Part shown: positions 18,998 to 45,531 of the stretch, one piece after another
How the letters are laid out: each line of letters begins with the position of its first letter
How positions within the stretch are numbered: the stretch's first letter is position 1
Origin: Patescibacteria group bacterium
GTDB taxonomy: Bacteria > Patescibacteriota > Patescibacteriia > UBA9934 > GWF2-40-263
NCBI GenBank assembly: GCA_041661745.1
Contig: JBAZTR010000004.1
Span: 12,961 to 76,960 of the forward strand
Direction: 5' to 3'
Length of the DNA stretch: 64,000 nucleotides
The notes under the pieces: model-generated
Database searches by the model: none
The model's input: the letters and a program-made list of their open reading frames with translations, nothing else
What the model was told of the DNA's origin: nothing
Position numbers and translations under genes: made by a program

Positions 18998-19030
18998 AGT
19001 ATGCCCCCTTTTAGAAAAAGGAAAGAAACC

Positions 19031-19900: not shown

Positions 19901-19902
19901 GG

Positions 19903-19931: not shown

Positions 19932-19981
19932 ATGTTAAAAACACAAAAGTCGGCAAGCCTCTCGGCGGTGCGGAGGGAAAG

Positions 19982-20434: not shown

Positions 20435-20483
20435 CTTAGCCACGCTGTAGCTCGCCACGAGCGAAGGCGGGACGCCACCCTCT

Positions 20484-20509
20484 CGATCCTCACCTGAGGA
20501 TCTTTTTAT
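20484..20509 (+). terminator. Cassette terminator (gatcctcacctgaggatc + T5)
   Basis: Conserved hairpin plus T-tract. Confidence 0.6.
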
Positions 20510-20550
20510 TTCTGGCTGGTCTCCTACTCTCCCAGCTTCCTAGTCTCCTA
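20505..20550. repeat. PE-T family fragment (ctcctactctcccagcttcctagtctcctaaca)
   Basis: Shares ctcctag/cctagtctcc words with the elements at 22166, 33533 and 41294. Confidence 0.5.
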
Positions 20551-20556
20551 ACACTC

Positions 20557-20585
20557 TGGACACAAATCCAAAACTATGATAAAAA
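20557..20585 (+). promoter_or_regulatory. Conserved cassette promoter tggaca-N17-taaaaa
   Basis: Same motif and spacing as the other two cassette promoters. Confidence 0.6.
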
Positions 20586-20622
20586 TCTGGGTCGCAAATT
20601 CCGCGCGACTCTGGAGGATTCC

Positions 20623-21492
20623 ATGAACGTAATCCATGATGGAGAAACCGGAGGCATCCGGGTGTTCTTCGGGGAAACCGTGATCGACATCGACCCCCGC
20701 GATCCGCGCTGTCATGGGCTGCTCAACGACCGGGGGTTCATGAAGATCGCCAACATCAAGTGCGGTTCGATCTTGATCGTCTTCGGCCGGAGCTTGAGGA
20801 CGAAGACGGCCCGCATGATGGGCGAGATCATGTTCGGCTGGACCCTCACCAATTCCTCGAACTCGCAAATCGTCGCCGAAAGAGGGGTGCGTGTGAGGAT
20901 CGGCGGCTGGAAGCCCATGCCCGTGCCGCACAACTGCGATATGTTCGAGCTCCTCGAACACGCGGACGCGCTGTACTTCGACACGATGGAGATCCGAACG
21001 AAGGCTTCGGAGGTGGCAGCCAGGGCCTTGGGGCCGTTCATCATGATCCCCTTCGTTCCGCCCGAGCCGACCCCGAGCGAACTGGCCATCGCCGAGTTCA
21101 GGAGAAGGACCGGCGTGGAGCCGACTTCGGTGCTGCTCGAAGCAGAGGCCGAGGATGCTCCCGAACCACCGGTGGCGGTTCCGGCTGGCGCCGAAGCGAA
21201 CTCCCCCATCCCCGGCCTCACGCCGGAGCAGGTCAAGAACCTGATCAGGCGATGCGACGAGCTGGGGTTCACCACTCGTGTGACGAACGGCCTCAGGACC
21301 GTCGGATGTGAATTCGTCTACCAGGTGGTGGAAAAAACCGGACCCGAGACGCTCGGGGCCAAGGGCCTCGGTCGCAGGTCCAATAATGAGCTCAGGGTGA
21401 TTCTCGCCGAACTCGGGCTCAGCTTCGGCATGAACTTCACCACCGAACAGCGAGCCGCTCTCGAGCGCCTGGCTCACCAGCTGCCGCGCTGA
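20623..21492 (+). CDS. GC-rich cassette gene 3: two-domain protein with C-terminal alpha-CTD-like HhH domain
   Basis: The C-terminus TTRVTNGLRTVGCEFVYQVVEKTGPETLGAKGLGRRSNNELRVILAELGLSFGMNFTTEQ parallels ORFs 16977 and 17386. The N-terminal 200 aa have no recognisable domain. GGAGGA Shine-Dalgarno. Confidence 0.6.
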   Translation: MNVIHDGETGGIRVFFGETVIDIDPRDPRCHGLLNDRGFMKIANIKCGSILIVFGRSLRTKTARMMGEIMFGWTLTNSSNSQIVAERGVRVRIGGWKPMPVPHNCDMFELLEHADALYFDTMEIRTKASEVAARALGPFIMIPFVPPEPTPSELAIAEFRRRTGVEPTSVLLEAEAEDAPEPPVAVPAGAEANSPIPGLTPEQVKNLIRRCDELGFTTRVTNGLRTVGCEFVYQVVEKTGPETLGAKGLGRRSNNELRVILAELGLSFGMNFTTEQRAALERLAHQLPR

Positions 21493-21510
21493 TCGCCCCC
21501 CCCTCCCCTT

Positions 21511-21537
21511 CGATCCTCACCTGAGGATCTTTTTTTA
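21511..21537 (+). terminator. Cassette terminator (gatcctcacctgaggatc + T7)
   Basis: Conserved hairpin plus T-tract. Confidence 0.6.
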
Positions 21538-21540
21538 ATT

Positions 21541-21750
21541 CCCTCTCCTTCTGAGCCGTTGTACCCCTCACCCATACCCCCGTGCCGATGTCACCCCCCC
21601 CCTCACCCCTGCCCCTCTCCCTGCCAAGATCAGAGGGGAGAGAGGTTGTAGACTTTGGCACAAAAAGTTCCCCTCCCCCATCTGCTTTTTTAGCAGGGGG
21701 AGGGGTTAGGGGAGAGGGGCCAACACGTGAGGGGAGGATTGAGGAGAGGG
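21541..21750. repeat. Compound PE-C palindromic module (copy 3, extended)
   Basis: Near-identical core to 18780 and 19741, with additional C-tract arms. Confidence 0.85.
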
Positions 21751-21953
21751 CCGACTGGACATCCTAATAGCATCTGGTAAACTAAAAATATTATGAAAGG
21801 CTTAACCGCCCAATTTGGCTTCTTTAGCTTCTGCTTTACCAAAGCGGGTGGTTTAGTTCTCTCTTAAAAGATAAATAAGAGGCCGCCCGCGTTCCCACGC
21901 GAGCGGTCTTTTGTTTTGTCCCTGATCCCGTAACCAGGCAAGGAGGAAAAGTC

Positions 21954-22115
21954 ATGGCCGCCACGAACCAAAACCGTGAAGATCCGCGTCGCTACACTGA
22001 AACGACCGACACTACCGGACAGCGTCTGGCCGTTGATCAGGACGGCAACAAGTTCCTTCTTCGGGCGGACCAGATCGTCTACAACGGTCAGGTCTACAAT
22101 CTCGGGGGCTTCTAG
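21954..22115 (+). CDS. Small GC-rich protein (53 aa), not in the ORF track
   Basis: AAGGAGGA Shine-Dalgarno 5 nt upstream of the ATG. A clean terminator follows at 22129..22157 (ggcagaa-aacac-ttctgcc + T7). Sequence: MAATNQNREDPRRYTETTDTTGQRLAVDQDGNKFLLRADQIVYNGQVYNLGGF. Confidence 0.45.
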   Translation: MAATNQNREDPRRYTETTDTTGQRLAVDQDGNKFLLRADQIVYNGQVYNLGGF

Positions 22116-22128
22116 TTCCCCACTCTCT

Positions 22129-22157
22129 CGGCAGAAAACACTTCTGCCGTTTTTTTA
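22129..22157 (+). terminator. Intrinsic terminator
   Basis: 7-bp perfect stem plus T7. Confidence 0.75.
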
Positions 22158-22165: not shown

Positions 22166-22194
22166 GCTAGCCTCCTAGTCTCCTAGCATCCTAC
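22166..22194. repeat. PE-T family element (ctagcctcctagtctcctagcatcctacc)
   Basis: cctag-based tandem words shared with the elements at 33533, 41294 and 20505. Confidence 0.6.
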
Positions 22195-24387: not shown

Positions 24388-24394
24388 ATGTTTT

Positions 24395-24477
24395 TTAGTG
24401 GGTAGGTGTGTAGTAGGTAGTATGTAGGCAAAAGTTCCCGACTAGATCTATTGCCTACCCACTACATACTACATACT
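24395..24477. repeat. Palindromic element PE-Y
   Basis: Same orientation as the 7645 copy. Confidence 0.85.
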
Positions 24478-24881
24478 CAAACCTTTTTAATAGTAATATG
24501 AGGCGGCCGATCGTAAACCGGGGTAACAAAACCTTCGGTTTTTTGTTTTACCCAAATAGCGCCGGATGTTCGGATCATTTCTTCCCCACCCTGGCGGGCC
24601 GCGTTTTCTACACCAATCACTAAAAGTTTCTTGGCAAAGGCTAAAGCATTGGCAATGGTGACAATAATCCTGGTCGAGGTAAACGAACCTGGGCCGGAAA
24701 CCACCACAATCTTTTCCAGGGCTTCTGGCGAAACCAAGTGATCGTGCAAAAATTCGGCGGTCGTGGCCAAATAACCCTCGGGGGCAACGGTAAATTCCTG
24801 AAACGAAAGAAGACGACCTTCGCTATCAAGAAGGCCGGCTTCCATTCGAGTAATATCTTGAGCGGCCAAGAATAAAATCAT
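24477..24881 (-). CDS. tsaB: TsaB (YeaZ)-like protein, truncated ASKHA fold
   Basis: VVSGPGSFTSTRIIVTIANALAFA matches the TsaB/Kae1-family glycine-rich loop. 134 aa, shorter than canonical TsaB. Confidence 0.55.
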   Translation of the reverse strand: MILFLAAQDITRMEAGLLDSEGRLLSFQEFTVAPEGYLATTAEFLHDHLVSPEALEKIVVVSGPGSFTSTRIIVTIANALAFAKKLLVIGVENAARQGGEEMIRTSGAIWVKQKTEGFVTPVYDRPPHITIKKV

Positions 24882-25561
24882 GAATTTTTTTCAATTTTTT
24901 CGGCCACGGTCGGCTCGGCGACCACATGCAACTTATCGACCATGACAACTTTCTCGCCTTCCAGAATGGCAAAAAGGAAGCGATCGGTAATCTGCCGGCG
25001 ATAATTAAACTCCTCCCGCGGCATTAAAGTATAATTTATTTCGTAGCCCAGTTCAGCTTCAAACTCGCTCACTACTTTTTGCAAAGTTTTTTGATCAATA
25101 CTGCCAACAATCAAAATATCGGTTTGCACGTTGGTATTGTCGACAAAACGACCGGTAAAAATCAACAAGTCAACGTCACCGCGCGTTTTAATTTCTTGAA
25201 CAAGGTTTTGTTTCAAAAGAATTTGAATTTTTCTGAAGAGATTCCTAAGATCGTGAAAAAGCAAAAAATTGGTGTTCGCAGTATAAAACTTTTTTCGCTC
25301 CGAAAGAACCTTGGCCCGACCGGCAACGGCTCCGTGGTTTTCAATAACCAAACCAATCTCAATAAGGTTTTGTAATTCGCGTCGAACCGAATTAAGCTGG
25401 GCCGAAATCTTTCGCGTCAGTTCACGAACAAAATATGACTGTTCGGGGTTTTCCAAAAAGAGACCGAGGAGGCGCGCTCGTGTTTTTGAGCCAAACAACT
25501 GTTCGATTCGGAAATTAGGGGTAGCCATAAGGTAATTTACCGATCCTCCACTGGTGGACAA
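24878..25561 (-). CDS. Winged-helix DNA-binding protein with C-terminal uncharacterised domain
   Basis: N-terminal wHTH (RARLLGLFLENPEQSYFVRELTRKISAQLNSVRRELQNLIEIGLV). 227 aa. Confidence 0.45.
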   Translation of the reverse strand: MSTSGGSVNYLMATPNFRIEQLFGSKTRARLLGLFLENPEQSYFVRELTRKISAQLNSVRRELQNLIEIGLVIENHGAVAGRAKVLSERKKFYTANTNFLLFHDLRNLFRKIQILLKQNLVQEIKTRGDVDLLIFTGRFVDNTNVQTDILIVGSIDQKTLQKVVSEFEAELGYEINYTLMPREEFNYRRQITDRFLFAILEGEKVVMVDKLHVVAEPTVAEKIEKNS

Positions 25562-27838: not shown

Positions 27839-28237
27839 TTATTTCAATTCAGCCTTACCGCCAGCTTCTTCGATTTTCTTTTTCATTTCTTCGGCAGCGG
27901 CTTTGTCAACGCCTTCTTTGATCATCTTCGGGGCGCCGTCGACCAAATCCTTGGCTTCTTTAAGTCCAAGACCGGTCACTTCACGGACGACTTTGATGAC
28001 GCCGATTTTGTTGTCACCAGTGGCCGTCAACTCGACGTTGAAAGAGGTTTTCTCTTCAGCGGCGGCAGCACCACCAGGCGCGGCGGCCATCATCATAGCT
28101 GGAGCCGAGGCGGAAACGCCGAACTTCTCTTCAAGGACCTTAACCAATTCGGCCAGGTCAAGAACGGACATTTTTTCGATTTCTTCGACCAAAGCTTTGA
28201 ACTTGGCCGGGACTTCGACAATTTTTTCGTCAGACAT
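27839..28237 (-). CDS. rplL: 50S ribosomal protein L7/L12
   Basis: Canonical L7/L12 with an Ala-rich hinge and the C-terminal [27 protein letters not shown] motif. Confidence 0.95.
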
Positions 28238-28240
28238 ATT

Positions 28241-28322
28241 TTTAGGTTCGAGTATGTAGTATGTAGTGGGTAGGCAATAGATTTAATGAAACTTTTGCCT
28301 ACATACTACCTACTACGTACTA
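28241..28322. repeat. Palindromic element PE-Y
   Basis: Lies between rplJ and rplL, immediately 5' of the rplL start. Confidence 0.85.
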
Positions 28323-30838: not shown

Positions 30839-31042
30839 TTATTCTTCAAACTTCTTCTTCAACTCCTTAATTTTATTTTCAACTTCGGAAAGTTTGCCTT
30901 TACAAACTTTCGCGAGCTCAAGTCCGCGTTCAAACTTAGCCAGACCTTCATCAAGGTCGGCTTCGCCTTTTTCGAACCACTCGGTGATTTGTTCGAGCTC
31001 TTCAAAAGCTTTGGAAAAATTTACAGTTGTTTTTTTGGTCAT
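30839..31042 (-). CDS. xseB: Exodeoxyribonuclease VII small subunit
   Basis: 67-aa coiled-coil FEELEQITEWFEKGEADLDEGLAKFERGLELAK. Overlaps the xseA stop by 4 nt. Confidence 0.85.
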   Translation of the reverse strand: MTKKTTVNFSKAFEELEQITEWFEKGEADLDEGLAKFERGLELAKVCKGKLSEVENKIKELKKKFEE

Positions 31043-32247
31043 ATAAGTTTTAGTTTTCCTTTTCCATTAACTCGCAACACTTCGGCCCCAAGCGAACCTT
31101 CAGCTAATTGTACCCCGATTTCCGCGCCAATCTCAAGCGCAGCCGCGTCTTTGATTACCTTCCCTCTGGCTGTAACAATACTGTAGCCGCGGGCCAGAAC
31201 GCGTTTAGGATCAAGATTGGCCAGAACGCGGAACGAAGCAGCTAAACGATCTTTGAAACGCGGCAGCCAATTGTTAACACGATCAAACAAATTGTTGGTG
31301 AGATGTGATAATTTTTCTTTTTGACGATCAGCCGCGGAAAAAATAAGTTGAGTGGCGCGATCAATTAACATTTGCTTCTCGCCTAAAACATCACTTAAAC
31401 GATTTTCTAAATGTCGGGTCATGGTTTCAATTTCATAAAGAACCTCCTGGCGATTTGGGACAACTCGTTCAGCTGCGTTGGACGGTGTGGAAGCACGGAC
31501 ATCGGCGACAAAATCGCAGAGCGATTCGTCACGCTCGTGGCCAACGCCGCAAACCACGGGAATTTTGGAACCAAAAACCGCGCGGGTAACTTGTTCGTCG
31601 TTGAAGGCATGAAGATCTTCCAAGCTGCCGCCGCCGCGAGTTAGTACTAAAACTTCCGGCCGCTTATCATCGGGCAAAGAATTAAATTTTTCGAAAGCCT
31701 CAAGAATTTCCGGCACGGCTTCCCGCCCCTGCACATGCACGTGTGAGAATAAAACCTCAACCCCGCCCCAGCGATTATTTAAAATTCTGATAAAGTCGCC
31801 GTAAGCCGCGGCATCACGCGAAGTGATTAAACCAATCCGTTCGGGAAATCTTGGCAAGCGGCGTTTGCGCGAAATCTCAAATAAACCTTCGTCGGTTAAT
31901 TTCTTTTTTAAAAGTTCGTAAGCTTTTTTTAAAGCCCCGTCGCCAACAGCTTCCATTTTTTGCACTTCAATTTGAAAACCGCTCCACTTATTAATGGCCG
32001 GCGGTCCCCAAACTTTTACTTTCATGCCGTCCTCAAATACTCCGCTCACTTTAAAAGTCGTGGCAAAACAACCGACTTTGGCCGAGGGATCGTTTTCATC
32101 TTTCAGCGAAAACATTATCCACTTGCCGTCTTTTATTTTGTAATCAAAAATCTCGCCTTCCACGGCAAAAGAATAGCCATCAATGTTTAATTTCAAAACT
32201 TGGTTGGCTAATTTCAGGTATTCCGAAACTTGTAGGACAGGTTCCAT
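31039..32247 (-). CDS. xseA: Exodeoxyribonuclease VII large subunit
   Basis: N-terminal OB fold plus the ExoVII-large catalytic region. 402 aa. Operon with xseB. Confidence 0.85.
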   Translation of the reverse strand: MEPVLQVSEYLKLANQVLKLNIDGYSFAVEGEIFDYKIKDGKWIMFSLKDENDPSAKVGCFATTFKVSGVFEDGMKVKVWGPPAINKWSGFQIEVQKMEAVGDGALKKAYELLKKKLTDEGLFEISRKRRLPRFPERIGLITSRDAAAYGDFIRILNNRWGGVEVLFSHVHVQGREAVPEILEAFEKFNSLPDDKRPEVLVLTRGGGSLEDLHAFNDEQVTRAVFGSKIPVVCGVGHERDESLCDFVADVRASTPSNAAERVVPNRQEVLYEIETMTRHLENRLSDVLGEKQMLIDRATQLIFSAADRQKEKLSHLTNNLFDRVNNWLPRFKDRLAASFRVLANLDPKRVLARGYSIVTARGKVIKDAAALEIGAEIGVQLAEGSLGAEVLRVNGKGKLKLI

Positions 32248-32305
32248 AACCCAGCTATTTTACCAGAAAAATAAAAAACCCGCCTATCTGGGTGATGGCG
32301 GGCGG

Positions 32306-33472
32306 TCAGGCCGAGTACGAAGCGTCGAGGATCCCTTCCCAGTCGAGGTCGGGGTCGAAGGGGTCGATCACCGCGTTCCGGAAAGCCGAGAAGACGTCGG
32401 AGACCGAAAGTTCGTTGAGAAGCATCTCCTTGATCGTCGGCGTCGGACGCGAACGGAGTTGGTCGGCGATGGCGGCCAAGTCCTCATCACACAAAAGGGC
32501 GAACAAAGCCGTGGTGTTCACCTCTGGCATAATTTCGGCCAGGGCGTCGTAGACCGCTCCGAAGATGGCGTGGCCATGATCGGAAGGGTTGTTGATCGGG
32601 TAGAACTTGTACATGTGCCGACGTGCTTCTTCGAAGAGTCCGAAGGTCGGACCACGGCTGAAGGAAACTGCTCCAACTTCGGCCGACTCGCGAACCAGGG
32701 CGACGATGCAACGGGCGACTCGCTCACGCTGGCTTGCCCCCAACTTGTGCATAGCCTTGTGGATTTCCGCCATCTCGCTTTCTTCGAGACAGATCCAGCA
32801 ACCACCCTTCTGTATACGAATGACATCGTTGTAGTCGGCGAAGAGGTAGGCGATCTTGTCAGCGAACATGACGATCGCTTCCTCGAGCGAGAGGATGCCG
32901 GTAGTGAGATCTTTGGCCCCGCGCGAATGGCGATGCATGACTTGGAGCGTCTGCTTGGTCAGGTTAAGACCATGACCGGAACGCTCAATGTGCTGGGCCA
33001 CGACCAGTCCAAAAACCTCGTGACGGAAAGATCGGCCGGTTTTCTTGGCCAGAAACATTTCACCGGTATGGCCGAGCGGCGTGTGACCGATGTCGTGGCC
33101 AAGGGCCCCGGCCAAACAGAGCCACGGGTTGGCCCCAAGGGCAAAGGCCAGGGCGACGGCGATCGAGCAGACCTCGTCAGTGTGCGAACGCCTGGTACGA
33201 ATATGGAGATTGGTCGGGTCGGGCACAACCTGGGTGTGCCTGGCCGAACGACGCAGACCACGGCTTTGCATAAGCTTCAACGCCGCGTCAATCATGTATG
33301 GATCGATGCCCGGCTGACCGATGAAGATCCCATCGCCATCGTTGTCACGGTGAATGCGCCGGACCGCGACCTCGGGACCAGTGGCCAGGTGTTTAAGGCA
33401 GCCAATGAACGGCCGGAGCTCGTTGCGGAGGAGTCGAACATCTTCAGGGGAAATGATGGAGAGCAGGTTCAT
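32306..33472 (-). CDS. HD-domain dGTPase-family (Dgt-like) triphosphohydrolase, GC-rich
   Basis: RSHTDEVCSIAVALA…GALGHDIGHTPLGHTGE matches the dGTP triphosphohydrolase family H…HD…D signature. GC is about 60%, against about 44% background. Confidence 0.65.
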   Translation of the reverse strand: MNLLSIISPEDVRLLRNELRPFIGCLKHLATGPEVAVRRIHRDNDGDGIFIGQPGIDPYMIDAALKLMQSRGLRRSARHTQVVPDPTNLHIRTRRSHTDEVCSIAVALAFALGANPWLCLAGALGHDIGHTPLGHTGEMFLAKKTGRSFRHEVFGLVVAQHIERSGHGLNLTKQTLQVMHRHSRGAKDLTTGILSLEEAIVMFADKIAYLFADYNDVIRIQKGGCWICLEESEMAEIHKAMHKLGASQRERVARCIVALVRESAEVGAVSFSRGPTFGLFEEARRHMYKFYPINNPSDHGHAIFGAVYDALAEIMPEVNTTALFALLCDEDLAAIADQLRSRPTPTIKEMLLNELSVSDVFSAFRNAVIDPFDPDLDWEGILDASYSA

Positions 33473-33532
33473 AGTGGACTCCGATGAAAAGGAACAGTGG
33501 AGGAGTATCTAAACAAAAAAAGAACCGACTGT

Positions 33533-33582
33533 CTAGTCGATTCTGCCTAGTCTCCTAGCTTCCTACCCTCCTAGCCTCCTAA
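33533..33582. repeat. PE-T family element (cctagtctcctagcttcctaccctcctagcctcct)
   Basis: Identical 35-mer to the reverse complement of 41297..41331. Confidence 0.75.
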
Positions 33583-34043
33583 AAATAAACCGGCTGAAAA
33601 ACCGGCACCGCCAACCAAAATATAAAAGCAATAAGAAGAAGCGAAACCAAAACTTCGAGCCAAACGGTTTTCCCTTCCTTACGCCCCAACCAACCAAAAC
33701 CAAAAAGCGGGAAAAAAATAAAATCAAAAACCAACCAAACCAAACCAGTAAAAAACAAAAGGGTCAACGGCCCGTACGGTTGGCCGACAAAATCAAGCCA
33801 GCCTTTATCAGCAACAAAAGGGTAGGTGCTGCCAAAGACCATCCCCATCAAAATATGTAACAGAAGGCCGGTGGCAAAAGCTGCTAATTGCGACAGGCGC
33901 AAATCAAAAAAAGATTTTACATCAACCACTAGCGGCAAATTTTTAACCTTGCCGCGGCGAACAACTTCCGTGATTATCGCCGGCATGGAAACAAGGAAAG
34001 CCGCCAGGCCACCGACTGAAGCGCCTAAAATAATGTCGTTCAT
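33579..34043 (-). CDS. Integral membrane protein (4–5 TM)
   Basis: Hydrophobicity. 154 aa. Confidence 0.45.
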   Translation of the reverse strand: MNDIILGASVGGLAAFLVSMPAIITEVVRRGKVKNLPLVVDVKSFFDLRLSQLAAFATGLLLHILMGMVFGSTYPFVADKGWLDFVGQPYGPLTLLFFTGLVWLVFDFIFFPLFGFGWLGRKEGKTVWLEVLVSLLLIAFIFWLAVPVFQPVYF

Positions 34044-34062
34044 ATTTGTTTTTTTTGGACAC

Positions 34063-34150
34063 GAGTATGTAGTAAGTAGTGGGTAGGCAATAGATCTAAT
34101 TGGGAACTTTTGCCTACATACTACCTACTACTTACTACAATACTACATAC
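34063..34150. repeat. Palindromic element PE-Y
   Basis: Same orientation as the 2994 copy. Confidence 0.85.
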
Positions 34151-36412: not shown

Positions 36413-36509
36413 GCTTTTATATTATAGCAGTAAAAACACAAAAAATGTAAAAGTTGCCTTCTTTTAAAAAATAAGATAAAAAGGACTCAGTAACCCCGGG
36501 GAGTCAATC

Positions 36510-36953
36510 ATGGGAACGTTCTTCACCATCATCGTTTGGCTGGTCACCATCGTCTTCGCCGTTATTCTCGGCGCCGTGGCCATTGTGTGGCTCATCGTGG
36601 TGGGCTTTCTCATCTGGATGGCTGTCGCTGCCATCTTTAGATTCTTCGACAAGGTCTCCCGTCCGACCATCCAGGGTGTCGGCCAGGTCATCGGCAGGCA
36701 CTTCATGCCGGAGCACGAAGAGGAATACACCCAAATGATCGGCGAGGACACGTTCAACAGAACCAGAACCGTCCCTGACTGCTGGACGGTCAAGGTCAGG
36801 CTGTTCGGCTGCGATGGCACGCTCGAGGTGGATCAGGACACCTACAACAAGCTCCGGGTCGACGACCAGGTCGCCGTCGATTATCGCCTCGGCCGTTTCA
36901 GCGGCCAGCCCCACATGTACGACGTCAGACCTCTCCTCTCCGCAGTGGCGTAG
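36510..36953 (+). CDS. GC-rich small membrane protein (2 TM) with soluble C-terminal domain, moron-like unit
   Basis: About 60% GC. GGGGAG Shine-Dalgarno. Bidirectional terminator at 36977..37008. Confidence 0.5.
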   Translation: MGTFFTIIVWLVTIVFAVILGAVAIVWLIVVGFLIWMAVAAIFRFFDKVSRPTIQGVGQVIGRHFMPEHEEEYTQMIGEDTFNRTRTVPDCWTVKVRLFGCDGTLEVDQDTYNKLRVDDQVAVDYRLGRFSGQPHMYDVRPLLSAVA

Positions 36954-36976
36954 CTTGCGCCGCTGTTTTTTATAAA

Positions 36977-37008
36977 CAAAAACCACCGAGATAATCTTGG
37001 TGGTTTTT
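36977..37008. terminator. Bidirectional intrinsic terminator (aaaaaccaccgagataatcttggtggttttt)
   Basis: Hairpin flanked by A-run and T-run, lying between convergent genes. Confidence 0.7.
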
Positions 37009-38456: not shown

Positions 38457-39500
38457 TTATTCCCACGGCAAACCTTCTCGCCCAAACTGTCCGTAAACGG
38501 AAACCGCGCGATACCGCGGTTTCTTTAAATCCATTTTTTCGACAATGTCGTCAAGGTTAAAATTATAATTTTGTTTAACGTATTCCAAAAGAGTTCCCCC
38601 TCCCTCACTGGGGGAGGGCTGGGGAGAGGGATTTGAAGATTTGACGTCAATCATTACCGGTTCGGAACGTCCCAGAGTGTAAGTCAAAGAAACAACAGCC
38701 GAATCAGCCTTCCCTTCCTTAACCAATTGCTTGGCAACATATCTGGCCATGTAAGCTCCGGCCCGTTCGGCTCGCTGAGGATCCTTGCCAATAGGCGAAG
38801 AATCGCCGTGCGGTACCAGCCCGCCATAAAAATCCGCGGCCGCGCGTCGACCACTTACCCCAGCCTCGGACTGAAAACCTTGGGTAGAAAATTGCCCAAT
38901 GGGATTTATAAAAATTTGCGCTTGCTCGCCGCCAATAATCGGGGCTACCACACGCTCCAACAAACGGGCTTGAACATCAATCGGAGCAACGTCTGCCGCG
39001 TGACTGGCTAAAAGGGTTACGGCCGAAACTTTTTTCCCTTCCATTACCACTTGTGCTTTACCATCAGCTCCCAGCCAGTGAAACGAAGGGTCGAGTCGGC
39101 GCAAATCATCAAGACGACGAACCAAACCTTGGGCCAGAACCATAGGAAGTGGAAGAAACTCACGCGTCTCGCGGGTGGCGTAACCGTTCACGACAACCGT
39201 GTCGTACGAACCGTGTATTTTTTTTATTTCCTCGGAAGAACTTTCGATATTTACAAAAACTTCAATTTCATCAGAATAACCAATTTCGTGATACATTTGT
39301 TTGGCCAACGAGGCCACGTCAAAATCGGCCGTGGAATTAACTTCCCCGCCAACCATAACCATGCCGTGTGAACCCAAAACTTTAATGTCCAAACGGCTGT
39401 CCGGATCGCGCCGCAAATATTCATCAACAATACCGTCGGCGATTTGATCGCAGATTTTATCAGAATGTCCGGCACAAAGTGCTTCAACGGTTTTCGACAT
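38457..39500 (-). CDS. metK: S-adenosylmethionine synthetase (bacterial type) with in-frame PE-C insertion
   Basis: GHSDKICDQIADGIVDEYL N-terminus. About 14 extra residues (SNPSPQPSPSEGGG) are encoded by the PE-C repeat at 38593..38640. Confidence 0.8.
   Translation of the reverse strand: MSKTVEALCAGHSDKICDQIADGIVDEYLRRDPDSRLDIKVLGSHGMVMVGGEVNSTADFDVASLAKQMYHEIGYSDEIEVFVNIESSSEEIKKIHGSYDTVVVNGYATRETREFLPLPMVLAQGLVRRLDDLRRLDPSFHWLGADGKAQVVMEGKKVSAVTLLASHAADVAPIDVQARLLERVVAPIIGGEQAQIFINPIGQFSTQGFQSEAGVSGRRAAADFYGGLVPHGDSSPIGKDPQRAERAGAYMARYVAKQLVKEGKADSAVVSLTYTLGRSEPVMIDVKSSNPSPQPSPSEGGGTLLEYVKQNYNFNLDDIVEKMDLKKPRYRAVSVYGQFGREGLPWE
38593..38640. repeat. PE-C element inserted in-frame within metK
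   Basis: ccccctccctcactgggggagggctggggagaggg lies inside the metK reading frame. Confidence 0.75.
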
Positions 39501-39609
39501 ATAGCGGCCTTAGGTTAACAACTTTTTCTGGTAAAAGCAACCCTACCTTTAAGGAGTTACTGTTTCCTGTTAAGATAAAATCGAACAATAACTATTAATA
39601 AATTTTATA

Positions 39610-39783
39610 TGGAATTATCTGAAGTCGCCTCGATCTTAGAAAGTCTAAGAGAAAAGGTCGGGAGTATGGAAACAAAAGTTCGAGATATTGAAAGTTACAT
39701 GGTTAAAAAAGACCACCTTGACGGAAGAATCACTGAAATTAAAGATGAACTTTCCGACATAAAAGCCGCGTGCGCAAAATAAA
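39610..39783 (+). CDS. Small coiled-coil protein (57 aa), not in the ORF track
   Basis: ATG 39610 … TAA 39781–39783, giving MELSEVASILESLREKVGSMETKVRDIESYMVKKDHLDGRITEIKDELSDIKAACAK. A PE-C palindrome and terminator follow. Confidence 0.35.
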
Positions 39784-39866
39784 TCTGCTTCCCCTCTCCT
39801 TACGAAGGAGAGGGGTGTAGGGGTGAGGTAAACAAAAAACCATCCTTTCTTAGGGTGGTTTTTTGT
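39783..39866. repeat. PE-C element (cccctctcc-ttacgaa-ggagagggg-tgtaggggtgagg) plus terminator hairpin
   Basis: Perfect 9-bp inverted repeat, then aaccatcctttcttagggtggtttttt. Confidence 0.8.
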
Positions 39867-41290
39867 TCCGTATCAACTCAACAGTTCCGCGTGCATCCCT
39901 TTTGACGAGACGCTTAGCGAGAGAGCGATAAACTCCCCGCCAAATTTAATGAACATGATTCTGTCGAGCTGGTATAGCGAATCGTCTGTCTGGAACAGAC
40001 GATTCGAGATTTGTGAGTGCGAACGTCGGGTGTTAATTGAGAAGGAGGAGTGGGCGGCCGCTGGAGGGTGTGCGGCCGCCCTTTTAGTTGATCAGTGTAG
40101 CGCCTTTTTTCACGACCGAAGTCGTGGCCCGGAGAGCTTTTTTACTCCCGAGCAATAACGGCGCACATGGTCACCTCCTCTTTTTCTCTACTAAATCTCC
40201 GAGCAACTCAGAAACTTGGTGGAGTGGGGGAAAACGGAGTGCGTGTCCCCCGAGACTCCTGTCACAACTTCCTTGCGACAGAGTAGGAACAGTTCGCTTA
40301 ACCGGCGTCTCGCGACTCCGGAGGGCCAACTGAAAAGCCCTTTTGTGTTCTGCTATTTCTAGCCCCAGAACTGTTGGGCCGAGGTTGTGTTAGGTCGCGA
40401 GCCTAACGGCGTCACTTGTTTTTCGCAATACTTGATCAACACGCATTCGTACTAGTGTTTGGAATTGCTCGTCAACGGTCCGTGAACGGACTCGTCCGCT
40501 TACCAAATCCCCTATCGAATTACCATGTCTTTCAAGAATCACTACTCGCAAGCCGCGAACTCTGTCCTGCGTCTCCGCAGACCACCTACATTCAGTACTC
40601 CACTGTTGCAGCTTTCGCTGATCAGTCAGTGTTTCCCTTTCGAGTGGCGAGATTCGCGCTACCAACGCCGGCTAGTCCTGATATTTTGGTCGGATGGGCG
40701 ACCAGCTTATTCCCATCCGTTGCCCTACATCGTCTCCACTCAATCTCCTTCACCAACAGTTTCGCTTCGTTGGCGCGCCGGTTCTTGGGAGACACCGGAA
40801 CAGAGTTTCTTTGCCGCACTATCCGCCTTGTGCAGCCAACGCTGGGGGTGGTTTCCGGACCCCAGGCAGGTTTCCTCTCTAGGCCCTAAGGCGACGAGGA
40901 TTTCGCGCAACCTGCAGCGCGCCGTTCATCCCGCCCACACCATGTGAGCGGGACCGGAGGAGAAATTCTTCTGATTAACCAAACTGCGAGTCGAACATCG
41001 CAGTCTCCTTGGTTGGGGGGGGGGGAACGACCCTTCTCTTGAGGACATGAGCCAGTCAGTCCTCCAACTGTGTCCAACCCAATGGGAGGGACAACCACCT
41101 CTTTCGAAGTGGTGCAGCGGGGTGCAGCCGACGTCCGACCGAAGTCGGACAATGAGCACAGGCGGCCTAGCACCCCCACAATCCGCGACTTTGTAGTCGT
41201 GAACTTTGGGGGTGACAGGAAAATTAGGAGAGTAAATATACCACATTTTGGCCACTTTGTCAAGATTAAATGGCCGTATTTTGGCTTATT
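39867..41290. other. GC-rich (about 58–60%) 1.4-kb island without credible ORF; candidate structured non-coding RNA or decayed foreign DNA
   Basis: Only short, mutually overlapping ORFs in several frames. A promoter-like ttgacg-N17-gataaa lies near 39900. Stable tetraloop hairpins cacgac-cgaa-gtcgtg and tccgac-cgaa-gtcgga are present. Confidence 0.4.
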
Positions 41291-41293
41291 TTA

Positions 41294-41400
41294 GCTAAGG
41301 AGGCTAGGAGGGTAGGAAGCTAGGAGACTAGGCAGATGCGAGTTAAAGACTAGATTCCTAGCCTCCTAGCATCCTAGCCTCCTAAAAGTCTCCTAAAAGT
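41294..41400. repeat. PE-T compound element (inverted pair)
   Basis: aggaggctaggagggtaggaagctaggagactagg … cctagcctcctagcatcctagcctcctaaaagtctcctaaaag. Confidence 0.75.
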
Positions 41401-41464
41401 TGACAAGAAATAAAAAAACCACTAGTTTTAGTGGCCGCGACTTAAAACCTTAGCCAATTGGCTT

Positions 41465-41878
41465 TTGGGAGACAACGTGGAAGAGAACCTCTCTACTGAC
41501 AGCTATTTCGGCGATACTTTTGTTAACATCGCCCTCAGGTGTGCAGCTCGCGATGGCCTCGACGCCGGGAATCGTCTCCTCGCCTTCAGATTGATGAAGA
41601 CTGCTGATTCTGGAGACAAGCTGGCTGAAAAGTGCTGCCAGCTCCGCCTCACCTTCCAGATCGTGCCGGCCACAGCCGAATGCAAGGCTCATGTCGAGAC
41701 CTGGGAAGAGGTCGCTCTGAGGATGCTCACGGACAAGCTCCGTCGAGAAGGCCCGGGCGAAGCCCTCGAGTTCATGAGGCAGTTCTCCGAGCTCGGAAAG
41801 ACCGATCCCGCCTTCACCGACGAAATGAGGGAACAGGTCAGCGAATACATCAGGAACACGGTTCCGCGACAGACCTAG
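41465..41878 (+). CDS. GC-rich hypothetical protein (137 aa), moron-like unit
   Basis: About 60% GC. Terminator at 41895..41916 (ccagcc-aacc-ggctgg + T6). Confidence 0.45.
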   Translation: MGDNVEENLSTDSYFGDTFVNIALRCAARDGLDAGNRLLAFRLMKTADSGDKLAEKCCQLRLTFQIVPATAECKAHVETWEEVALRMLTDKLRREGPGEALEFMRQFSELGKTDPAFTDEMREQVSEYIRNTVPRQT

Positions 41879-41894
41879 TTCCCTCTCCGCTCCG

Positions 41895-41916
41895 CCAGCC
41901 AACCGGCTGGTTTTTT
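41895..41916 (+). terminator. Intrinsic terminator
   Basis: 6-bp GC stem plus T6. Confidence 0.7.
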
Positions 41917-42976
41917 AATAAATAAACATCGCATCACCAAAAGAATAAAAACGATATTTTTCTTTTATCGCTTCTTCGTACGCTCGCAAAATATTTTCTC
42001 GACCAGCCAAGGCTGAAACCAAAACCAACAACGTTGATTTTGGTAAATGAAAATTAGTAATGAGTCCGTCAATAACATTAAATTTGAAACCCGGGGTGAT
42101 AAAAATATTTACTTCACCTAAAAAACCGTTTTCCGGAAGTTGGTCGTTATTCATTTTAGCTACTCCTTCAAGAGCGCGGGTGGTCGTTGTCCCCACAGCG
42201 ATAATTCTTCGTCCTTCCTTTTTTGCGGCATTAATTTTTTGGGCCACCTCGGCTTTTACTTCCACCAACTCTGAATGCATTTCGTGTTCTTCAAGAGTTT
42301 CAGTTTTCACCGGGCGAAAAGTCCCGAGCCCCACGTGTAATGTCACAAATTCAATCTCAATTCCCTTCTCTTTTATTTTTTGTAATAATTCTTTTGTAAA
42401 GTGAAACCCGGCTGTGGGCGCGGCCACTGATCCGGTTTCGCGAGCATAAACCGTTTGATATGTTTCCAATTTTTCCGGAATCTTTTTTACATAAGGCGGC
42501 ACGGGAATCTCACCATGTTTGTCGGTAAAATCTAAGACCTCGGCGGCCGAAACGGAAAACTGCAATTCGGCCGTGCCATCTTCGGCTTTACTTAAAACTT
42601 TTGCTTTTAATTCACCAAAATAAATTTCATCGCCAATTTTCACTTTTCGCCCCGGTTTCAACAAAGCCTGCCACACCTCTTCCGCCGAACGCAACAAAAA
42701 CACTTCTATTTCGTTTTCCCTTACCCTGCCCCGTAATCGCGCTTTAAAAACCTTGGTGTCGTTCATAACCAGAATGTCACCCGGACGAAGATATTCGATA
42801 ATTTCAAAAAAATGCCGATGTTCAAGGAAAGGCTCCTCAGCCCTTCCCAGCCCTTCAAGACCCTTCCCAGCCCTTTCCAACACCAAAAGCCGCGATGAAT
42901 CGCGCGGTTCGACCGGAGTTTGGGCAATCAGCTCAACTGGCAAATTGTAGTCAAAAAGGGAAATCGGGGTGGTCAT
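41915..42976 (-). CDS. queA: S-adenosylmethionine:tRNA ribosyltransferase-isomerase
   Basis: N-terminal LFDYNLPVELIAQTPVEPRDSSRLLVL and the C-terminal GTTTTRALE region. Carries an in-frame low-complexity tandem-repeat insertion (GKGLEGLGRAEEP). Confidence 0.85.
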   Translation of the reverse strand: MTTPISLFDYNLPVELIAQTPVEPRDSSRLLVLERAGKGLEGLGRAEEPFLEHRHFFEIIEYLRPGDILVMNDTKVFKARLRGRVRENEIEVFLLRSAEEVWQALLKPGRKVKIGDEIYFGELKAKVLSKAEDGTAELQFSVSAAEVLDFTDKHGEIPVPPYVKKIPEKLETYQTVYARETGSVAAPTAGFHFTKELLQKIKEKGIEIEFVTLHVGLGTFRPVKTETLEEHEMHSELVEVKAEVAQKINAAKKEGRRIIAVGTTTTRALEGVAKMNNDQLPENGFLGEVNIFITPGFKFNVIDGLITNFHLPKSTLLVLVSALAGRENILRAYEEAIKEKYRFYSFGDAMFIY

Positions 42977-44518: not shown

Positions 44519-45492
44519 AGGCCCAACAAACTCCCCCTCTTGACAAAGATGGGGTGTTTTATTAATCTTTTCCTTGCCCTTGTCGAAAAGCAGCTTCGCT
44601 GTCAAAGACCTTGGGCACATCCCACACGAGCCGTTCTTCTATGGAGGAAGCCGCGAATCCCGTGAAGCGCCTTCGCAGGGCCACGATACGAGCAACGTCG
44701 CGTTAGCGACACCACTCGTCCCTCGTACGGGAAAACCTAACTCATCGGCCCGACCACCGCTTCCTGCGCGCCGTCTCCTCACAGAGACGAGCGCGCCTTT
44801 TTTATTTATCCACAGTTATCCGCATCTAGCCATTGACGCCTTTTAAAGCAAAGAGTATTCTAGACAATACCGTCGCAGAAAGGCACGGAACGAAAAAGCT
44901 CAAGGCTTAAATGCCAACCATGTCGCATCTTCGGATGCGCCCACGGCGAGCCAATCGTCCATGACCTCACACGCGACAGTGTCCCTGTTCGCTTTCGAGC
45001 TCCGTTGGGGCTCACTCAGTGGTGAAATATCGGCCATAAGGTCCTCGGACCGATCTGGCGAACCCTCTACCAAGAGGTGGAAAGCACCGCTAAGCGATCA
45101 GCCTGTCCAAAAACATGATCCGATGCTCGATCGATAAGATCACTTCAAATCGACACATGCCGAAAAGGGCAACGTGAGGGAGACCTTACCAAACCCAAAT
45201 CGTGCATAACGAGCTAAGAAAGATGGGTGGTACATAACCAAAACCACCAAGAAGACAGGAGAGAAAAACGGGGTTGCGCGACGAATGCGATCAAAAACCA
45301 AGAACGAAAAGTTCCGAGATCAAAAACAGATTACTCCCAAAACGACTTCGGTCGTTCTAAGAGAACACCTGGACGAAATCTCGCCACTAATCACTTGGCC
45401 AAGATTGCCTCTTCGCCGCGCACCCCCGTCCTCTGGACCTTCTCTCCGCGACCTCAGGGTACTCCCCGAGGTCGTTATTTTTATAAGTAATC

Positions 45493-45521
45493 TTGACAGA
45501 AAGTCGCGGCTTGTATAGAAT
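45493..45521 (+). promoter_or_regulatory. Strong sigma70-like promoter ttgaca-N17-tagaat driving the tRNA-like gene
   Basis: ttgaca at 45493..45498 and tagaat at 45516..45521, about 10 nt upstream of the tRNA-like 5' end. Confidence 0.6.
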
Positions 45522-45531
45522 GCGGCCGTGA

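What the first reader, a model, noticed from the sequence alone, without database searches (positions are those of the whole stretch)
32306..33582. GC-rich dGTPase-family HD hydrolase as a probable horizontally acquired (possibly anti-phage) gene
ORF 32306..33472 has the Dgt-type HD signature (…HTDEV…GALGHDIGHTPLGHTGE…). It is about 60% GC and is flanked by a PE-T element.

dGTPase-family enzymes can function as nucleotide-depleting anti-phage defences. Its compositional foreignness in a reduced genome makes a defensive or otherwise accessory role plausible.
Basis: partly seen in the sequence, partly recalled or inferred. Interest (0 to 1): 0.55.

Follow-up and report, generated by a model that had tools for sequence, protein, structure and literature searches.

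The report
Anciently acquired GC-rich dNTPase gene
A GC-rich gene for a dNTP-degrading HD enzyme in a lower-GC Patescibacteria (Uhrbacteria) genome was inserted long ago in the ancestor of a small group of relatives and has been inherited with its neighbours since; nothing found here suggests an anti-phage role.

Summary
ORF 32306..33472 (minus strand, 388 aa) carries the quoted HD motif. It is 58.9% GC (GC3 0.715), against 0.438 and 0.433 on average for 50 other genes in the window. An octamer array plus a terminator hairpin sits upstream.

Six related Uhrbacteria contigs carry the gene in the same slot, between a 154-aa membrane-protein gene and xseA. Its divergence tracks that of the flanking genes, so it is not a recent arrival. 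Four more distant Uhrbacteria keep the locus but lack the gene there. In two of them the membrane-protein gene directly abuts xseA. The gene therefore entered the sub-clade's ancestor.

It is the GC-richest gene in all six carriers, and its nearest relatives sit in 54-64% GC genomes. A two-state model starting from GC3 of about 0.9 roughly reproduces today's values by plain amelioration.

The protein is a dNTP triphosphohydrolase with an intact active site. Its best structural match is Thermus thermophilus TT1383. It fails the curated anti-phage dGTPase model (38 versus 400 bits), and its neighbours are repair and housekeeping genes. It is a divergent member of a known enzyme kind, of modest interest.

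The parts
32306..33472 (-). dNTP triphosphohydrolase-family HD gene (388 aa). Metal ligands H97, H126, D127, D205; H135 and E138 form a likely catalytic dyad; conserved C-terminal DPDLDW motif.
   Evidence: ORF and translation. Pfam HD. NCBIfam dGTPase models below cutoff. Residues invariant across 67 family members. AlphaFold model pLDDT 91.8, best PDB match 2DQB.
33546..33581 (.). Array of 8-nt repeats (CCTAGNNT on the plus strand), starting at the stop codon of the upstream 154-aa gene. The same array occurs at about 20523-20550, 22166-22193 and, as an inverted pair, at 41297-41384.
   Evidence: 14 matches against 0.14 expected. Relatives carry lineage-specific 8-nt periodic repeats at the same position.
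33515..33544 (-). Intrinsic-terminator hairpin (33544-33521) plus T-run (33520-33515) that ends the upstream gene's transcript.
   Evidence: Scan hit with 10 pairs. Folding energy -12.2 kcal/mol, z = -3.6. Conserved in six relatives; 3 of 8 pairs keep pairing through changes on both sides.
33473..33515 (-). Conserved leader of the HD gene: a TGTTTAGAT box (33515-33507, candidate extended -10), a GTTCCTTT block, and a GGAG Shine-Dalgarno (33482-33479) 6 nt before the ATG.
   Evidence: Sequence conservation of these blocks in W, L004, L088, L092, L093 and L005. The promoter role is inferred, not tested.
32273..32305 (-). Intrinsic terminator just after the HD stop codon: a bulged GC-rich stem followed by T6.
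   Evidence: Folding energy -15.9 kcal/mol, z = -3.7. Nearly identical sequence in L004, L088, L092 and L093.
32257..32265 (-). TGGTAAAAT, a candidate extended -10 promoter for xseA, lying in the spacer created downstream of the inserted gene.
   Evidence: Conserved as TGGTAAAAT or TGGTAGAAT in L004, L088 and L093, and as AGTAAAAT in L005. The role is inferred.
33579..34043 (-). Upstream neighbour: a 154-aa membrane protein (weak DUF2938 hit on the outgroup orthologues). It forms the left edge of the insertion slot.
   Evidence: Orthologues directly abut xseA in outgroup loci L160 and L161.
31039..32247 (-). Downstream neighbour xseA (exonuclease VII large subunit). It forms the right edge of the insertion slot.
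   Evidence: TIGR00237, 349 bits against a cutoff of 180. Synteny.

Best explanation
The gene encodes a metal-dependent dNTP triphosphohydrolase that converts a dNTP to a deoxynucleoside plus triphosphate. It belongs to a divergent short subfamily that, wherever the source organism is identified, is found in Patescibacteria, and whose closest solved structure is Thermus thermophilus TT1383.

It was inserted as a single-gene unit between the 154-aa membrane-protein gene and xseA. This happened in the common ancestor of a small Uhrbacteria sub-clade, and the source genome was GC-rich (GC3 about 0.8-0.9), plausibly another Patescibacterium. The insertion split a tightly packed operon. The gene is now bounded by its own terminators, and xseA has a promoter-like box in the new spacer.

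Since then the gene has been inherited vertically under purifying selection. Its synonymous sites have drifted toward each host genome's composition at that lineage's own rate. This process is about complete in L004, L088 and L005, and about half complete in this window, L092 and L093. The GC-rich amino-acid make-up persists in all six.

The most likely role is control or recycling of the dNTP pool in a nucleotide-scavenging cell, not inducible anti-phage depletion.

Shown: gene, composition, synteny, absence in outgroups, fold and conserved active-site residues. Inferred: enzyme activity, donor identity, promoter and physiological role.
For: Enzyme
- H97, H126, D127, D205, H135 and E138 are invariant in 67 family members.
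- The motif HD.GH.P.GH.GE aligns with TT1383.
- The model is confident (pLDDT 91.8) and gives a full-length match to 2DQB with TM 0.61-0.65.
- In E. coli dGTPase, the H126A, E129A and Y272A mutants lose activity (PMC6511015).

Residency
- Same slot and gene order in L004, L088, L092, L093 and L005/L006.
- HD amino-acid identities are 0.95 (L004-L088), about 0.80 (W to L004, L088, L092, L093) and 0.66 (W to L005). These mirror the flanking genes.
- Residual identity at fourfold sites is 0.25-0.38, against 0.23-0.36 for the flanks.

Insertion
- L096, L097, L160 and L161 keep RecB-like/C39/mem154/xseA/xseB/holin-like but have no HD gene.
- mem154 overlaps xseA or lies 3 nt from it in L160 and L161.
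- HD homologues at >=58% identity number 8 clusters. This compares with 11 RecB-like clusters at >=71% identity, while roughly 100 listed Uhrbacteria-type RecB-like clusters at 55-64% have no comparably close HD counterpart.

GC-rich source
- The gene is the GC-richest in all six carriers: 0.589/0.453, 0.606/0.500, 0.587/0.510, 0.537/0.450, 0.473/0.396 and 0.468/0.402 (gene/flanks).
- The sister group comes from 54-64% GC loci with HD GC3 of 0.79-0.91. An NJ bootstrap gives 70% support for that grouping.

Amelioration
- Fixing the W-branch equilibrium GC3 at the flank value 0.43 is not rejected (p = 0.15-0.21). It implies an ancestral GC3 of 0.86-0.90 and a W branch length of 0.47-0.57, equal to the flanks' 0.54.

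Not a defence gene.
Against: - Unconstrained estimates put the gene's own equilibrium GC3 on the W branch at 0.70-0.84, well above the flanks' 0.18. A gene-specific GC-favouring force is therefore not excluded.
- The 70% NJ bootstrap for the sister relation is moderate, and no maximum-likelihood tree could be built.
- The organisms behind L007, L094 and L091 were not identified. Only L095 was placed in Patescibacteria/Uhrbacteria, through its RpoA.
- Loss in the outgroups instead of gain in the ingroup is less parsimonious but not impossible, because only about 15-21 kb of each outgroup genome was seen.
- No biochemical data exist for any member of this subfamily. A literature search for Patescibacteria plus triphosphohydrolase found nothing.
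- A housekeeping role is inferred only from conservation and context.
Confidence: 0.62

Rival explanations
1. The gene is a nucleotide-depleting anti-phage defence gene. On this view the dNTPase is switched on during infection and starves the phage of dNTPs, as Sp-dGTPase and SAMHD1 do.
For: - It belongs to the same enzyme superfamily and has an intact active site.
- It hits the PADLOC dGTPase model at 76 bits.
- It is patchily distributed and sits at different loci in different lineages.
- It has a foreign composition.
- A candidate-defence PADLOC model (PDC-M05A, 84.5 bits) matches a 227-aa protein about 7 kb away, at 24878-25561.
Against: - NCBIfam antiphage_dGTPase gives 38 bits against a cutoff of 400.
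- The PADLOC match covers only the HD core, whereas ordinary dGTPases match the full length at 193-296 bits.
- Sp-dGTPase (9p8w) is not among the PDB sequence hits, and by structure it ranks only 40th with TM 0.53/0.46.
- The protein is 388 aa, below the >400 aa used to define the defence family. Only homologues at >=45% identity to Sp-dGTPase were enriched near defence systems.
- The gene has been stably inherited at one locus in six lineages, among repair and housekeeping genes.
- No close relative was found in IMG/VR viral contigs.
Confidence: 0.12
2. The gene is ancestral to Uhrbacteria and vertically inherited, with loss or relocation in many lineages. Its GC-rich composition is actively maintained, either by selection on synonymous sites or by GC-biased gene conversion, and is not a relic of transfer.
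For: - Unconstrained substitution estimates give a GC-rich equilibrium for HD on the W, L092 and L093 branches (0.64-0.87), against 0.18-0.44 for the flanks.
- L095, an Uhrbacteria-like genome, also has an HD gene 5-7 points GC-richer than its surroundings.
- Genome GC in the Uhrbacteria loci seen here ranges from about 40 to 60%.
Against: - The constrained model with plain amelioration is not rejected (p = 0.15-0.21).
- In L004, L088 and L005, fourfold-site composition equals that of the flanks, so no such force acts there.
- The codon bias is general G+C enrichment, not the C-ending/A-ending pattern seen in rplL.
- All four outgroup loci show a tightly packed operon without the gene.
Confidence: 0.2
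3. The gene is a recent, genome-specific horizontal acquisition, or an assembly chimera joining DNA of a GC-rich organism to a Patescibacteria contig.
For: - The GC step at the gene borders is sharp.
- Repeats lie at the upstream border, and two short-read assemblies break there.
Against: - Orthologues sit at the same slot in five other lineages with congruent divergence.
- The HD-xseA junction is reproduced at 100% identity in an independent assembly.
- The closest homologue in 5.8 billion proteins outside the clade is only 46% identical.
Confidence: 0.03

Closest known systems
Thermus thermophilus TT1383 dNTP triphosphohydrolase (PDB 2DQB)
   Same: - Best sequence hit in the PDB (E = 3.7e-19 over residues 58-219).
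- Best structural hit, with a full-length alignment of about 380 columns and TM 0.61-0.65.
- Similar size (376 versus 388 aa).
- Same HD.GH.P.GH.GE active-site block.
   Different: - Only 22-24% identity.
- The C-terminal half is not recognised by Pfam HD_assoc (PF13286), which canonical relatives carry.
- The subfamily has its own N-terminal GCL.H..T....RRR block and C-terminal DPDLDW motif.
- Oligomeric state and dNTP activation are unknown.
Short 'deoxyguanosinetriphosphate triphosphohydrolase-like' proteins (NCBIfam NF002327 / PRK01286, TIGR01353)
   Same: Best NCBIfam match: NF002327 at 141 bits, covering residues 67-289. Same domain order.
   Different: The scores are far below the curated cutoffs (141 versus 393, and 63 versus 152.35). 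The protein would therefore not be named a dGTPase by these models. NCBI calls it 'HD domain-containing protein'.
Anti-phage dGTPase (Sp-dGTPase, NF041026; Tal et al. preprint 10.1101/2021.04.26.441389)
   Same: Same superfamily and the same predicted chemistry. Foldseek probability is 1.0 (rank 40).
   Different: - 38 bits against a cutoff of 400.
- Shorter than 400 aa.
- No defence neighbours.
- Stably inherited at one locus rather than variably present.
Housekeeping Dgt enzymes (E. coli Dgt; Caulobacter Dgt, PMC11071499)
   Same: Predicted dNTP-pool control, and conserved H..E catalytic dyad spacing. The equivalent residues were shown essential in E. coli (PMC6511015).
   Different: The sequence is very distant (NF003429 E = 0.0046), and TM is 0.43-0.49 to E. 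coli Dgt. Here the gene is not ancestral to the lineage but was inserted.

Membership tests
dNTP triphosphohydrolase (Dgt/SAMHD1-type HD hydrolase) superfamily | HD domain with H...HD...D metal ligands | tested here: met
   Pfam PF01966 at 36.1 bits against a cutoff of 22. H97, H126, D127 and D205 are invariant in 67 sequences.
dNTP triphosphohydrolase (Dgt/SAMHD1-type HD hydrolase) superfamily | Catalytic His/Glu dyad downstream of the HD motif (H126 and E129 in E. coli dGTPase) | tested here: met
   H135 and E138 are invariant within GH.GE. They align with the same block of TT1383. The essentiality of the E. coli residues comes from PMC6511015. The equivalence by spacing is my inference.
dNTP triphosphohydrolase (Dgt/SAMHD1-type HD hydrolase) superfamily | Full-length all-helical dNTPase fold, including the C-terminal half | tested here: met
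   AlphaFold2 model with pLDDT 91.8 and pTM 0.92. Foldseek match to 2DQB over 377-388 columns with TM 0.59-0.65. The next matches are VC1979, CloA, E. coli Dgt and L. blandensis dGTPase.
dNTP triphosphohydrolase (Dgt/SAMHD1-type HD hydrolase) superfamily | Curated sequence models (TIGR01353 dGTP_triPase; Pfam HD_assoc PF13286) | tested here: not met
   TIGR01353 scores 63 bits against a cutoff of 152.35. PF13286 is absent from this protein and from all 77 subfamily members, but present in the canonical hits.
dNTP triphosphohydrolase (Dgt/SAMHD1-type HD hydrolase) superfamily | Hydrolysis of dNTP to deoxynucleoside plus triphosphate; oligomeric, allosterically regulated enzyme | not testable with these tools
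   This needs purified protein.
Anti-phage dGTPase (Sp-dGTPase clade, NF041026) | Passes the curated model, or has >=45% identity to Sp-dGTPase at >400 aa | tested here: not met
   NF041026 scores 38.2 bits against a cutoff of 400, over residues 58-177 only. The protein is 388 aa. Sp-dGTPase is not among the PDB sequence hits at E <= 0.001.
Anti-phage dGTPase (Sp-dGTPase clade, NF041026) | Location next to restriction-modification or other defence genes; variable presence among close relatives | tested here: not met
   The neighbours are xseA, xseB, fpg, a TM0106 nuclease, SOD, PPIase, and ribosomal proteins L10 and L12. PADLOC finds only a weak Cas4-like match to the RecB-like nuclease and one PDC candidate 7 kb away. 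The gene is present in 6 of 6 close relatives.
Anti-phage dGTPase (Sp-dGTPase clade, NF041026) | Phage-triggered depletion of dGTP | not testable with these tools
   This needs an infection experiment.
Horizontally acquired gene (operational definition) | Atypical composition, empty site in related genomes, and nearest homologues outside the host lineage's locus or clade | tested here: met
   GC z = 4.4 and GC3 z = 5.6. The slot lacks the gene in 4 of 4 outgroup loci. The sister sequences lie in GC-rich genomes at unrelated loci.
Horizontally acquired gene (operational definition) | Recent acquisition (absent from close relatives, or discordant with the flanks) | tested here: not met
   The gene is present in six lineages and is congruent with the flanks.

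The most novel reading that the evidence does not exclude
The subfamily (short HD dNTPases with the DPDLDW C-terminus, at least 150 clusters at 50% identity) could be a mobile, Patescibacteria-specific dNTP-pool weapon or safeguard. In that case it would move between lineages and be kept GC-rich by a gene-specific force such as recurrent recombination, biased gene conversion, or selection on synonymous sites. It would act either against phages of these ultra-small bacteria or in competition with their hosts for deoxynucleosides.
Probability: 0.1. Interest if true: 0.55.

Novelty: new member of a known kind. Interest (0 to 1): 0.25.

Why it matters
The main value is as a clean, datable example of gene insertion and amelioration in a candidate-phyla-radiation lineage.

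- Four outgroups preserve the site without the gene.
- Six descendants show different stages of compositional decay.
- The insertion visibly broke an operon and created new terminators and a promoter-like box.

The case also flags an uncharacterised subfamily of dNTP triphosphohydrolases. The subfamily is found in Patescibacteria in every case where the source organism is identified. Current curated models do not capture it: it falls below all NCBIfam cutoffs and lacks the Pfam HD_assoc domain. Annotation pipelines therefore call it only 'HD domain-containing protein'.

From general knowledge, these organisms are thought to depend on salvaged nucleotides. An enzyme that degrades dNTPs is therefore physiologically relevant. 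Nothing here overturns current understanding.

Tried and rejected
1. Translational selection as the cause of the high GC3. Rejected. rplL prefers C-ending pyrimidine codons but A-ending purine codons, whereas the HD gene is enriched in both C and G endings.

2. A conserved antisense gene (ORF 32183..33487 on the plus strand, 434 aa). Rejected. The antisense frame is interrupted in L004, L088, L005, L092 and L093.

3. Phage origin. No subfamily member was found in IMG/VR, only HD-core matches at <=38% identity. PHROGs gives a single weak core match.

4. A GTDB genome scan for taxonomy. Only L008 (Moraniibacteriota) and L009 were subfamily members.

5. Cluster look-up for organism names of NCBI-sourced homologues. 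No names were returned.

6. A gene-specific GC equilibrium. Parsimony and unconstrained maximum-likelihood estimates suggested one. The likelihood-ratio test does not reject the plain amelioration model, so I do not claim it.

7. The octamer array as a mobile-element border. Rejected as specific evidence. Relatives carry different lineage-specific 8-nt periodic repeats at the same intergenic spot, and another repeat family in the window sits upstream of ordinary-GC genes.

8. Homology between the 36.5-kb GC-rich island and the corresponding spacer ORFs in relatives. Only weak tblastx signals were found.
Full report
**1. The observation**

The window is 45.9% GC. Its genes place it in Patescibacteria, within or close to Uhrbacteria: NCBI labels the exact proteins 'Patescibacteria group bacterium', and close homologues are labelled 'Candidatus Uhrbacteria'.

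ORF 32306..33472 on the minus strand encodes 388 aa and contains the quoted motif RRSHTDEV...GALGHDIGHTPLGHTGE. Its GC is 0.589 and its GC3 is 0.715. Fifty other well-defined genes in the window average GC 0.438 (sd 0.034, max 0.504) and GC3 0.433 (sd 0.050). The gene is therefore 4.4 and 5.6 standard deviations out, and it is the strongest codon-usage outlier.

The enrichment affects both C- and G-ending codons. It differs from the pattern in rplL, so it reflects composition rather than translational selection.

- An array of 8-nt repeats lies at 33546-33581. The same pattern gives 14 matches at four loci in the window, against 0.14 expected.
- A hairpin plus T-run follows at 33544-33515.

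Independent assemblies reproduce the sequence at 100% identity, so it is not a chimera.

**2. What the protein is**

- Pfam detects only the HD domain.
- All NCBIfam dGTPase models match, but far below their cutoffs. The best is NF002327 at 141 bits against 393.
- A search of 5.8 billion proteins returns about 77 full-length relatives of 340-390 aa that carry PF01966 but not PF13286. Canonical dGTPases appear only at much lower scores.
- A profile search of 1.84 billion cluster representatives lists 150 full-length matches at 288 bits or more. The subfamily is therefore sizeable.
- Every subfamily member for which a source gave an organism name is from Patescibacteria: Uhrbacteria, Parcubacteria or Paceibacter. 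The genome scan added a Moraniibacteriota member, plus one on a 13-kb contig of a MAG labelled Gammaproteobacteria.
- In an alignment of 67 members, H97, H126, D127 and D205 (metal ligands) and H135 and E138 are invariant. A C-terminal DPDLDW motif is conserved.
- The AlphaFold2 model is confident (pLDDT 91.8, pTM 0.92).
- Its best solved match over the full length is the T. thermophilus dNTPase TT1383 (2DQB, TM 0.61-0.65). Next come VC1979, CloA, E. coli Dgt and L. blandensis dGTPase. TT1383 is also the best sequence hit in the PDB.
- In E. coli dGTPase, alanine substitution of H126, E129 or Y272 abolishes activity (PMC6511015). The H..E pair has the same spacing from the HD motif here.

I therefore regard dNTP triphosphohydrolase chemistry as well supported by homology, though it is untested.

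**3. Not a recent arrival**

Five other lineages carry an orthologue: L004, L088, L092, L093 and L005/L006, at 66-80% identity to the window's protein. The gene order is the same in each: SOD, PPIase, TM0106 RecB-like nuclease, peptidase C39-like, 154-aa membrane protein, HD, xseA, xseB, holin_4_2-family protein, fpg, L10, L12. L092 lacks xseAB at this position.

Pairwise amino-acid identities for HD are:
- L004-L088: 0.95
- W to L004, L088, L092 and L093: about 0.80
- W to L005: 0.66

These give the same branching as every flanking gene. Residual identity at fourfold-degenerate sites is 0.25-0.38 for HD among W, L092 and L093. For the flanks between W and L093 it is 0.23-0.36. The gene has therefore co-diverged with its neighbours since the common ancestor of these six lineages.

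**4. But it was inserted**

The RecB-like nuclease has roughly a hundred listed Uhrbacteria-type homologue clusters at 55-64% identity. I fetched four such loci:
- L096 (41.6% GC)
- L097 (59.5% GC)
- L160 (GCA_016205975.1, 59.3% GC)
- L161 (43.7% GC)

All four keep the RecB-like/xseA/xseB/holin-like/pyrH block as a tightly packed operon, and none has an HD homologue in the 15-21 kb seen. The slot itself differs among them:
- In L160, the mem154 orthologue overlaps xseA.
- In L161, it is 3 nt from xseA.
- In L097, a 596-aa glycosyltransferase occupies the slot.
- In L096, C39 and mem154 are missing too.

In the carriers the HD gene is a self-contained unit:
- A conserved terminator hairpin lies upstream. 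Three of its 8 pairs are kept through changes on both sides.
- A leader is conserved, with a TGTTTAGAT box and a GGAG Shine-Dalgarno.
- A second conserved terminator lies just after the stop codon (-15.9 kcal/mol).
- A TGGTAAAAT box lies in front of xseA.

HD homologues at 58% identity or more form only 8 clusters, against 11 clusters of RecB-like homologues at 71% or more. Beyond that the best HD hit drops to 46%.

A single gain at the base of the carrier clade is the most economical reading.

**5. Where it came from, and why it is still GC-rich**

In an NJ tree the window clade is monophyletic in 100% of bootstraps. In 70% it groups with P0051 and a set of sequences with GC-rich amino-acid make-up: P0009-P0012, P0014, P0018 and P0019.

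The loci fetched for that group are 54-64% GC, with HD GC3 of 0.79-0.91. They have unrelated neighbours:
- L007: Hcp-like protein, peptidases and a sensor kinase.
- L094: UbiA and NAD-salvage genes.
- L095: directly after rpsI.

L095 is a Patescibacterium close to Uhrbacteria. Its 233-aa RpoA has 74-85% identity to proteins labelled Patescibacteria or Uhrbacteria. The donor may therefore have been another, GC-richer member of the same radiation.

In all six carriers HD is the GC-richest gene:

| Lineage | HD GC | Flank GC |
|---|---|---|
| W (this window) | 0.589 | 0.453 |
| L093 | 0.606 | 0.500 |
| L092 | 0.587 | 0.510 |
| L005 | 0.537 | 0.450 |
| L004 | 0.473 | 0.396 |
| L088 | 0.468 | 0.402 |

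The GC1 and GC2 excess (0.60-0.64 and 0.42-0.44, against 0.51-0.59 and 0.36-0.40) is present in every lineage. It reflects a GARP-rich protein. Fourfold sites have fully equilibrated in L004, L088 and L005, but not in W, L092 or L093.

I asked whether this needs a special force.
- Parsimony polarisation and an unconstrained two-state non-stationary model gave a GC-rich equilibrium for HD on the W branch (0.70-0.84), against 0.18 for the flanks. The bootstrap intervals were very wide.
- A likelihood-ratio test does not reject fixing the W-branch equilibrium at the flank value of 0.43 (2ΔlnL = 1.6-2.1, p = 0.15-0.21).
- Under that constraint the ancestral HD GC3 is 0.86-0.90. The W branch length is 0.47-0.57, the same as the flanks' 0.54.

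I then combined the flank-derived branch parameters with an ancestral GC3 of 0.9. This is my own arithmetic:

| Lineage | Predicted HD GC3 | Observed HD GC3 |
|---|---|---|
| W | 0.70 | 0.71 |
| L093 | 0.64 | 0.72-0.74 |
| L004 | 0.39 | 0.31-0.37 |
| L005 | 0.55 | 0.52-0.57 |

The fit is close for W and L005, and off by up to 0.1 for L093 and L004. Plain amelioration of a gene that entered with the composition seen in the sister group is therefore sufficient. A gene-specific force remains possible but is not required.

**6. Defence or housekeeping**

The curated anti-phage dGTPase model scores 38 bits against a cutoff of 400, and only over the HD core.

The PADLOC dGTPase model gives 76 bits over profile positions 35-220. 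Ordinary short dGTPases from Chloroflexota and other phyla match it end to end at 193-296 bits. Other members of this subfamily score 71-104 bits.

The paper that defined the defence family retained homologues longer than 400 aa. It found defence-island association only for those at least 45% identical to Sp-dGTPase. More distant homologues were next to defence genes in only 10% of cases (10.1101/2021.04.26.441389).

The neighbours here pass the curated cutoffs for xseA, xseB, fpg and the TM0106 nuclease. PADLOC finds nothing nearby except a weak Cas4-like signal in that nuclease and one candidate model (PDC-M05A) on a 227-aa protein 7 kb away. No close relative occurs in IMG/VR viral contigs.

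Stable inheritance at one locus in six lineages is also unlike typical defence genes. I rate the defence reading at about 0.12.

**7. Verdict**

The protein is a divergent member of a known enzyme kind. The locus is a tidy case of insertion followed by lineage-specific amelioration. Interest is modest (0.25).

The most novel reading still open is that this subfamily is a mobile, Patescibacteria-specific dNTP-pool weapon whose GC-richness is actively maintained. I give that about 0.1.

Noticed in passing
window 16977-17282 (+), 20623-21492 (+), 17386-17718 (-): Two ORFs inside GC-rich islands pass Pfam's gathering score for the RNA polymerase alpha C-terminal domain (PF03118): 31.6 and 30.9 bits against a cutoff of 23.8. 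They are 32% identical to each other over 81 aa. A third ORF looks similar by eye. The RpoA of the Uhrbacteria-like locus L095 and its 120 listed homologues is mostly 231-240 aa (largest 268), with PF01000 and PF01193 but no C-terminal domain. This lineage may therefore encode the alpha-CTD as free-standing, possibly accessory, proteins.
   Followed up: partly
window 1-1150, 16951-18150, 18801-22150, 36501-37000, 40051-41250, 41451-41950, 45351-46150: Besides the HD gene, the window has about seven further GC-rich islands (0.55-0.62 GC against 0.46 overall). Most hold ORFs with no confident Pfam or PHROGs match. The 18.8-22.1 kb island contains a 132-nt repeat in three copies; two are 96% identical, at 19775 and 21606. 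One island ORF (41465-41878, plus strand) has a 35%-identical homologue in relative L088.
   Followed up: partly
window 20523-20550, 22166-22193, 33546-33581, 41297-41384: An 8-nt periodic repeat (CCTAGNNT)n occurs at four loci, once as an inverted pair. The copies at 22166-22193 and 33546-33581 begin at the stop codon of a minus-strand gene, and all four lie within or at the edge of GC-rich islands. At the position upstream of HD, related genomes carry different, lineage-specific 8-nt periodic repeats arranged as long inverted repeats (ACGAAACT-type in L004 and L088, AATTCCAA-type in L005, GATTCGT-type in L093).
   Followed up: partly
window 2983-3071, 7636-7725, 24389-24478, 28235-28322, 34048-34137: A second family of about 90-nt palindromic repeats (GTAGTATGTAGTGGGTAGGCAA...TTGCCTAC...) occurs five times. 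Each copy lies immediately upstream of the start codon of a minus-strand gene, which suggests a shared promoter or leader element.
   Followed up: no
window 45532-45628 (+): Rfam finds a 97-nt tRNA (50.6 bits, full model) that ARAGORN did not report. The extra length suggests a long variable arm or an insertion. It lies in a GC-rich stretch.
   Followed up: no
window 39500-41900: The 2.4 kb between metK and queA has no convincing protein-coding ORF apart from 41465-41878. It is about 55% GC and gives no Rfam hit at gathering thresholds. It could hold an unannotated structured RNA or degraded genes.
   Followed up: no
L004 6503-7588; L005/L006 8507-9160; L097 12770-14560; L092 1461-1889: The slot around mem154 | xseA | xseB is an insertion hot spot. 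L004 has an extra 361-aa AT-rich ORF between HD and xseA. L005/L006 has an extra ORF between xseA and xseB. L097 has a 596-aa glycosyltransferase where HD sits in the carriers. L092 has lost xseAB at this position.
   Followed up: partly
window 24878-25561 (-): A 227-aa protein matches the PADLOC candidate-defence model PDC-M05A (84.5 bits). It has no NCBIfam match at E <= 1e-5 and no Pfam family on record in the contig's gene table. It is the only defence-database hit near the HD gene, apart from a weak Cas4-like signal in the RecB-like nuclease.
   Followed up: no
L002 and L003 versus window 33571: Both short-read (Logan) contigs that carry the identical HD gene end at window position 33571, inside the octamer array. 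One of them (1363 nt) contains the HD gene alone (32209-33571). The likely cause is repeat-induced assembly breaks, but strain-level variation in the flanks is an alternative.
   Followed up: no
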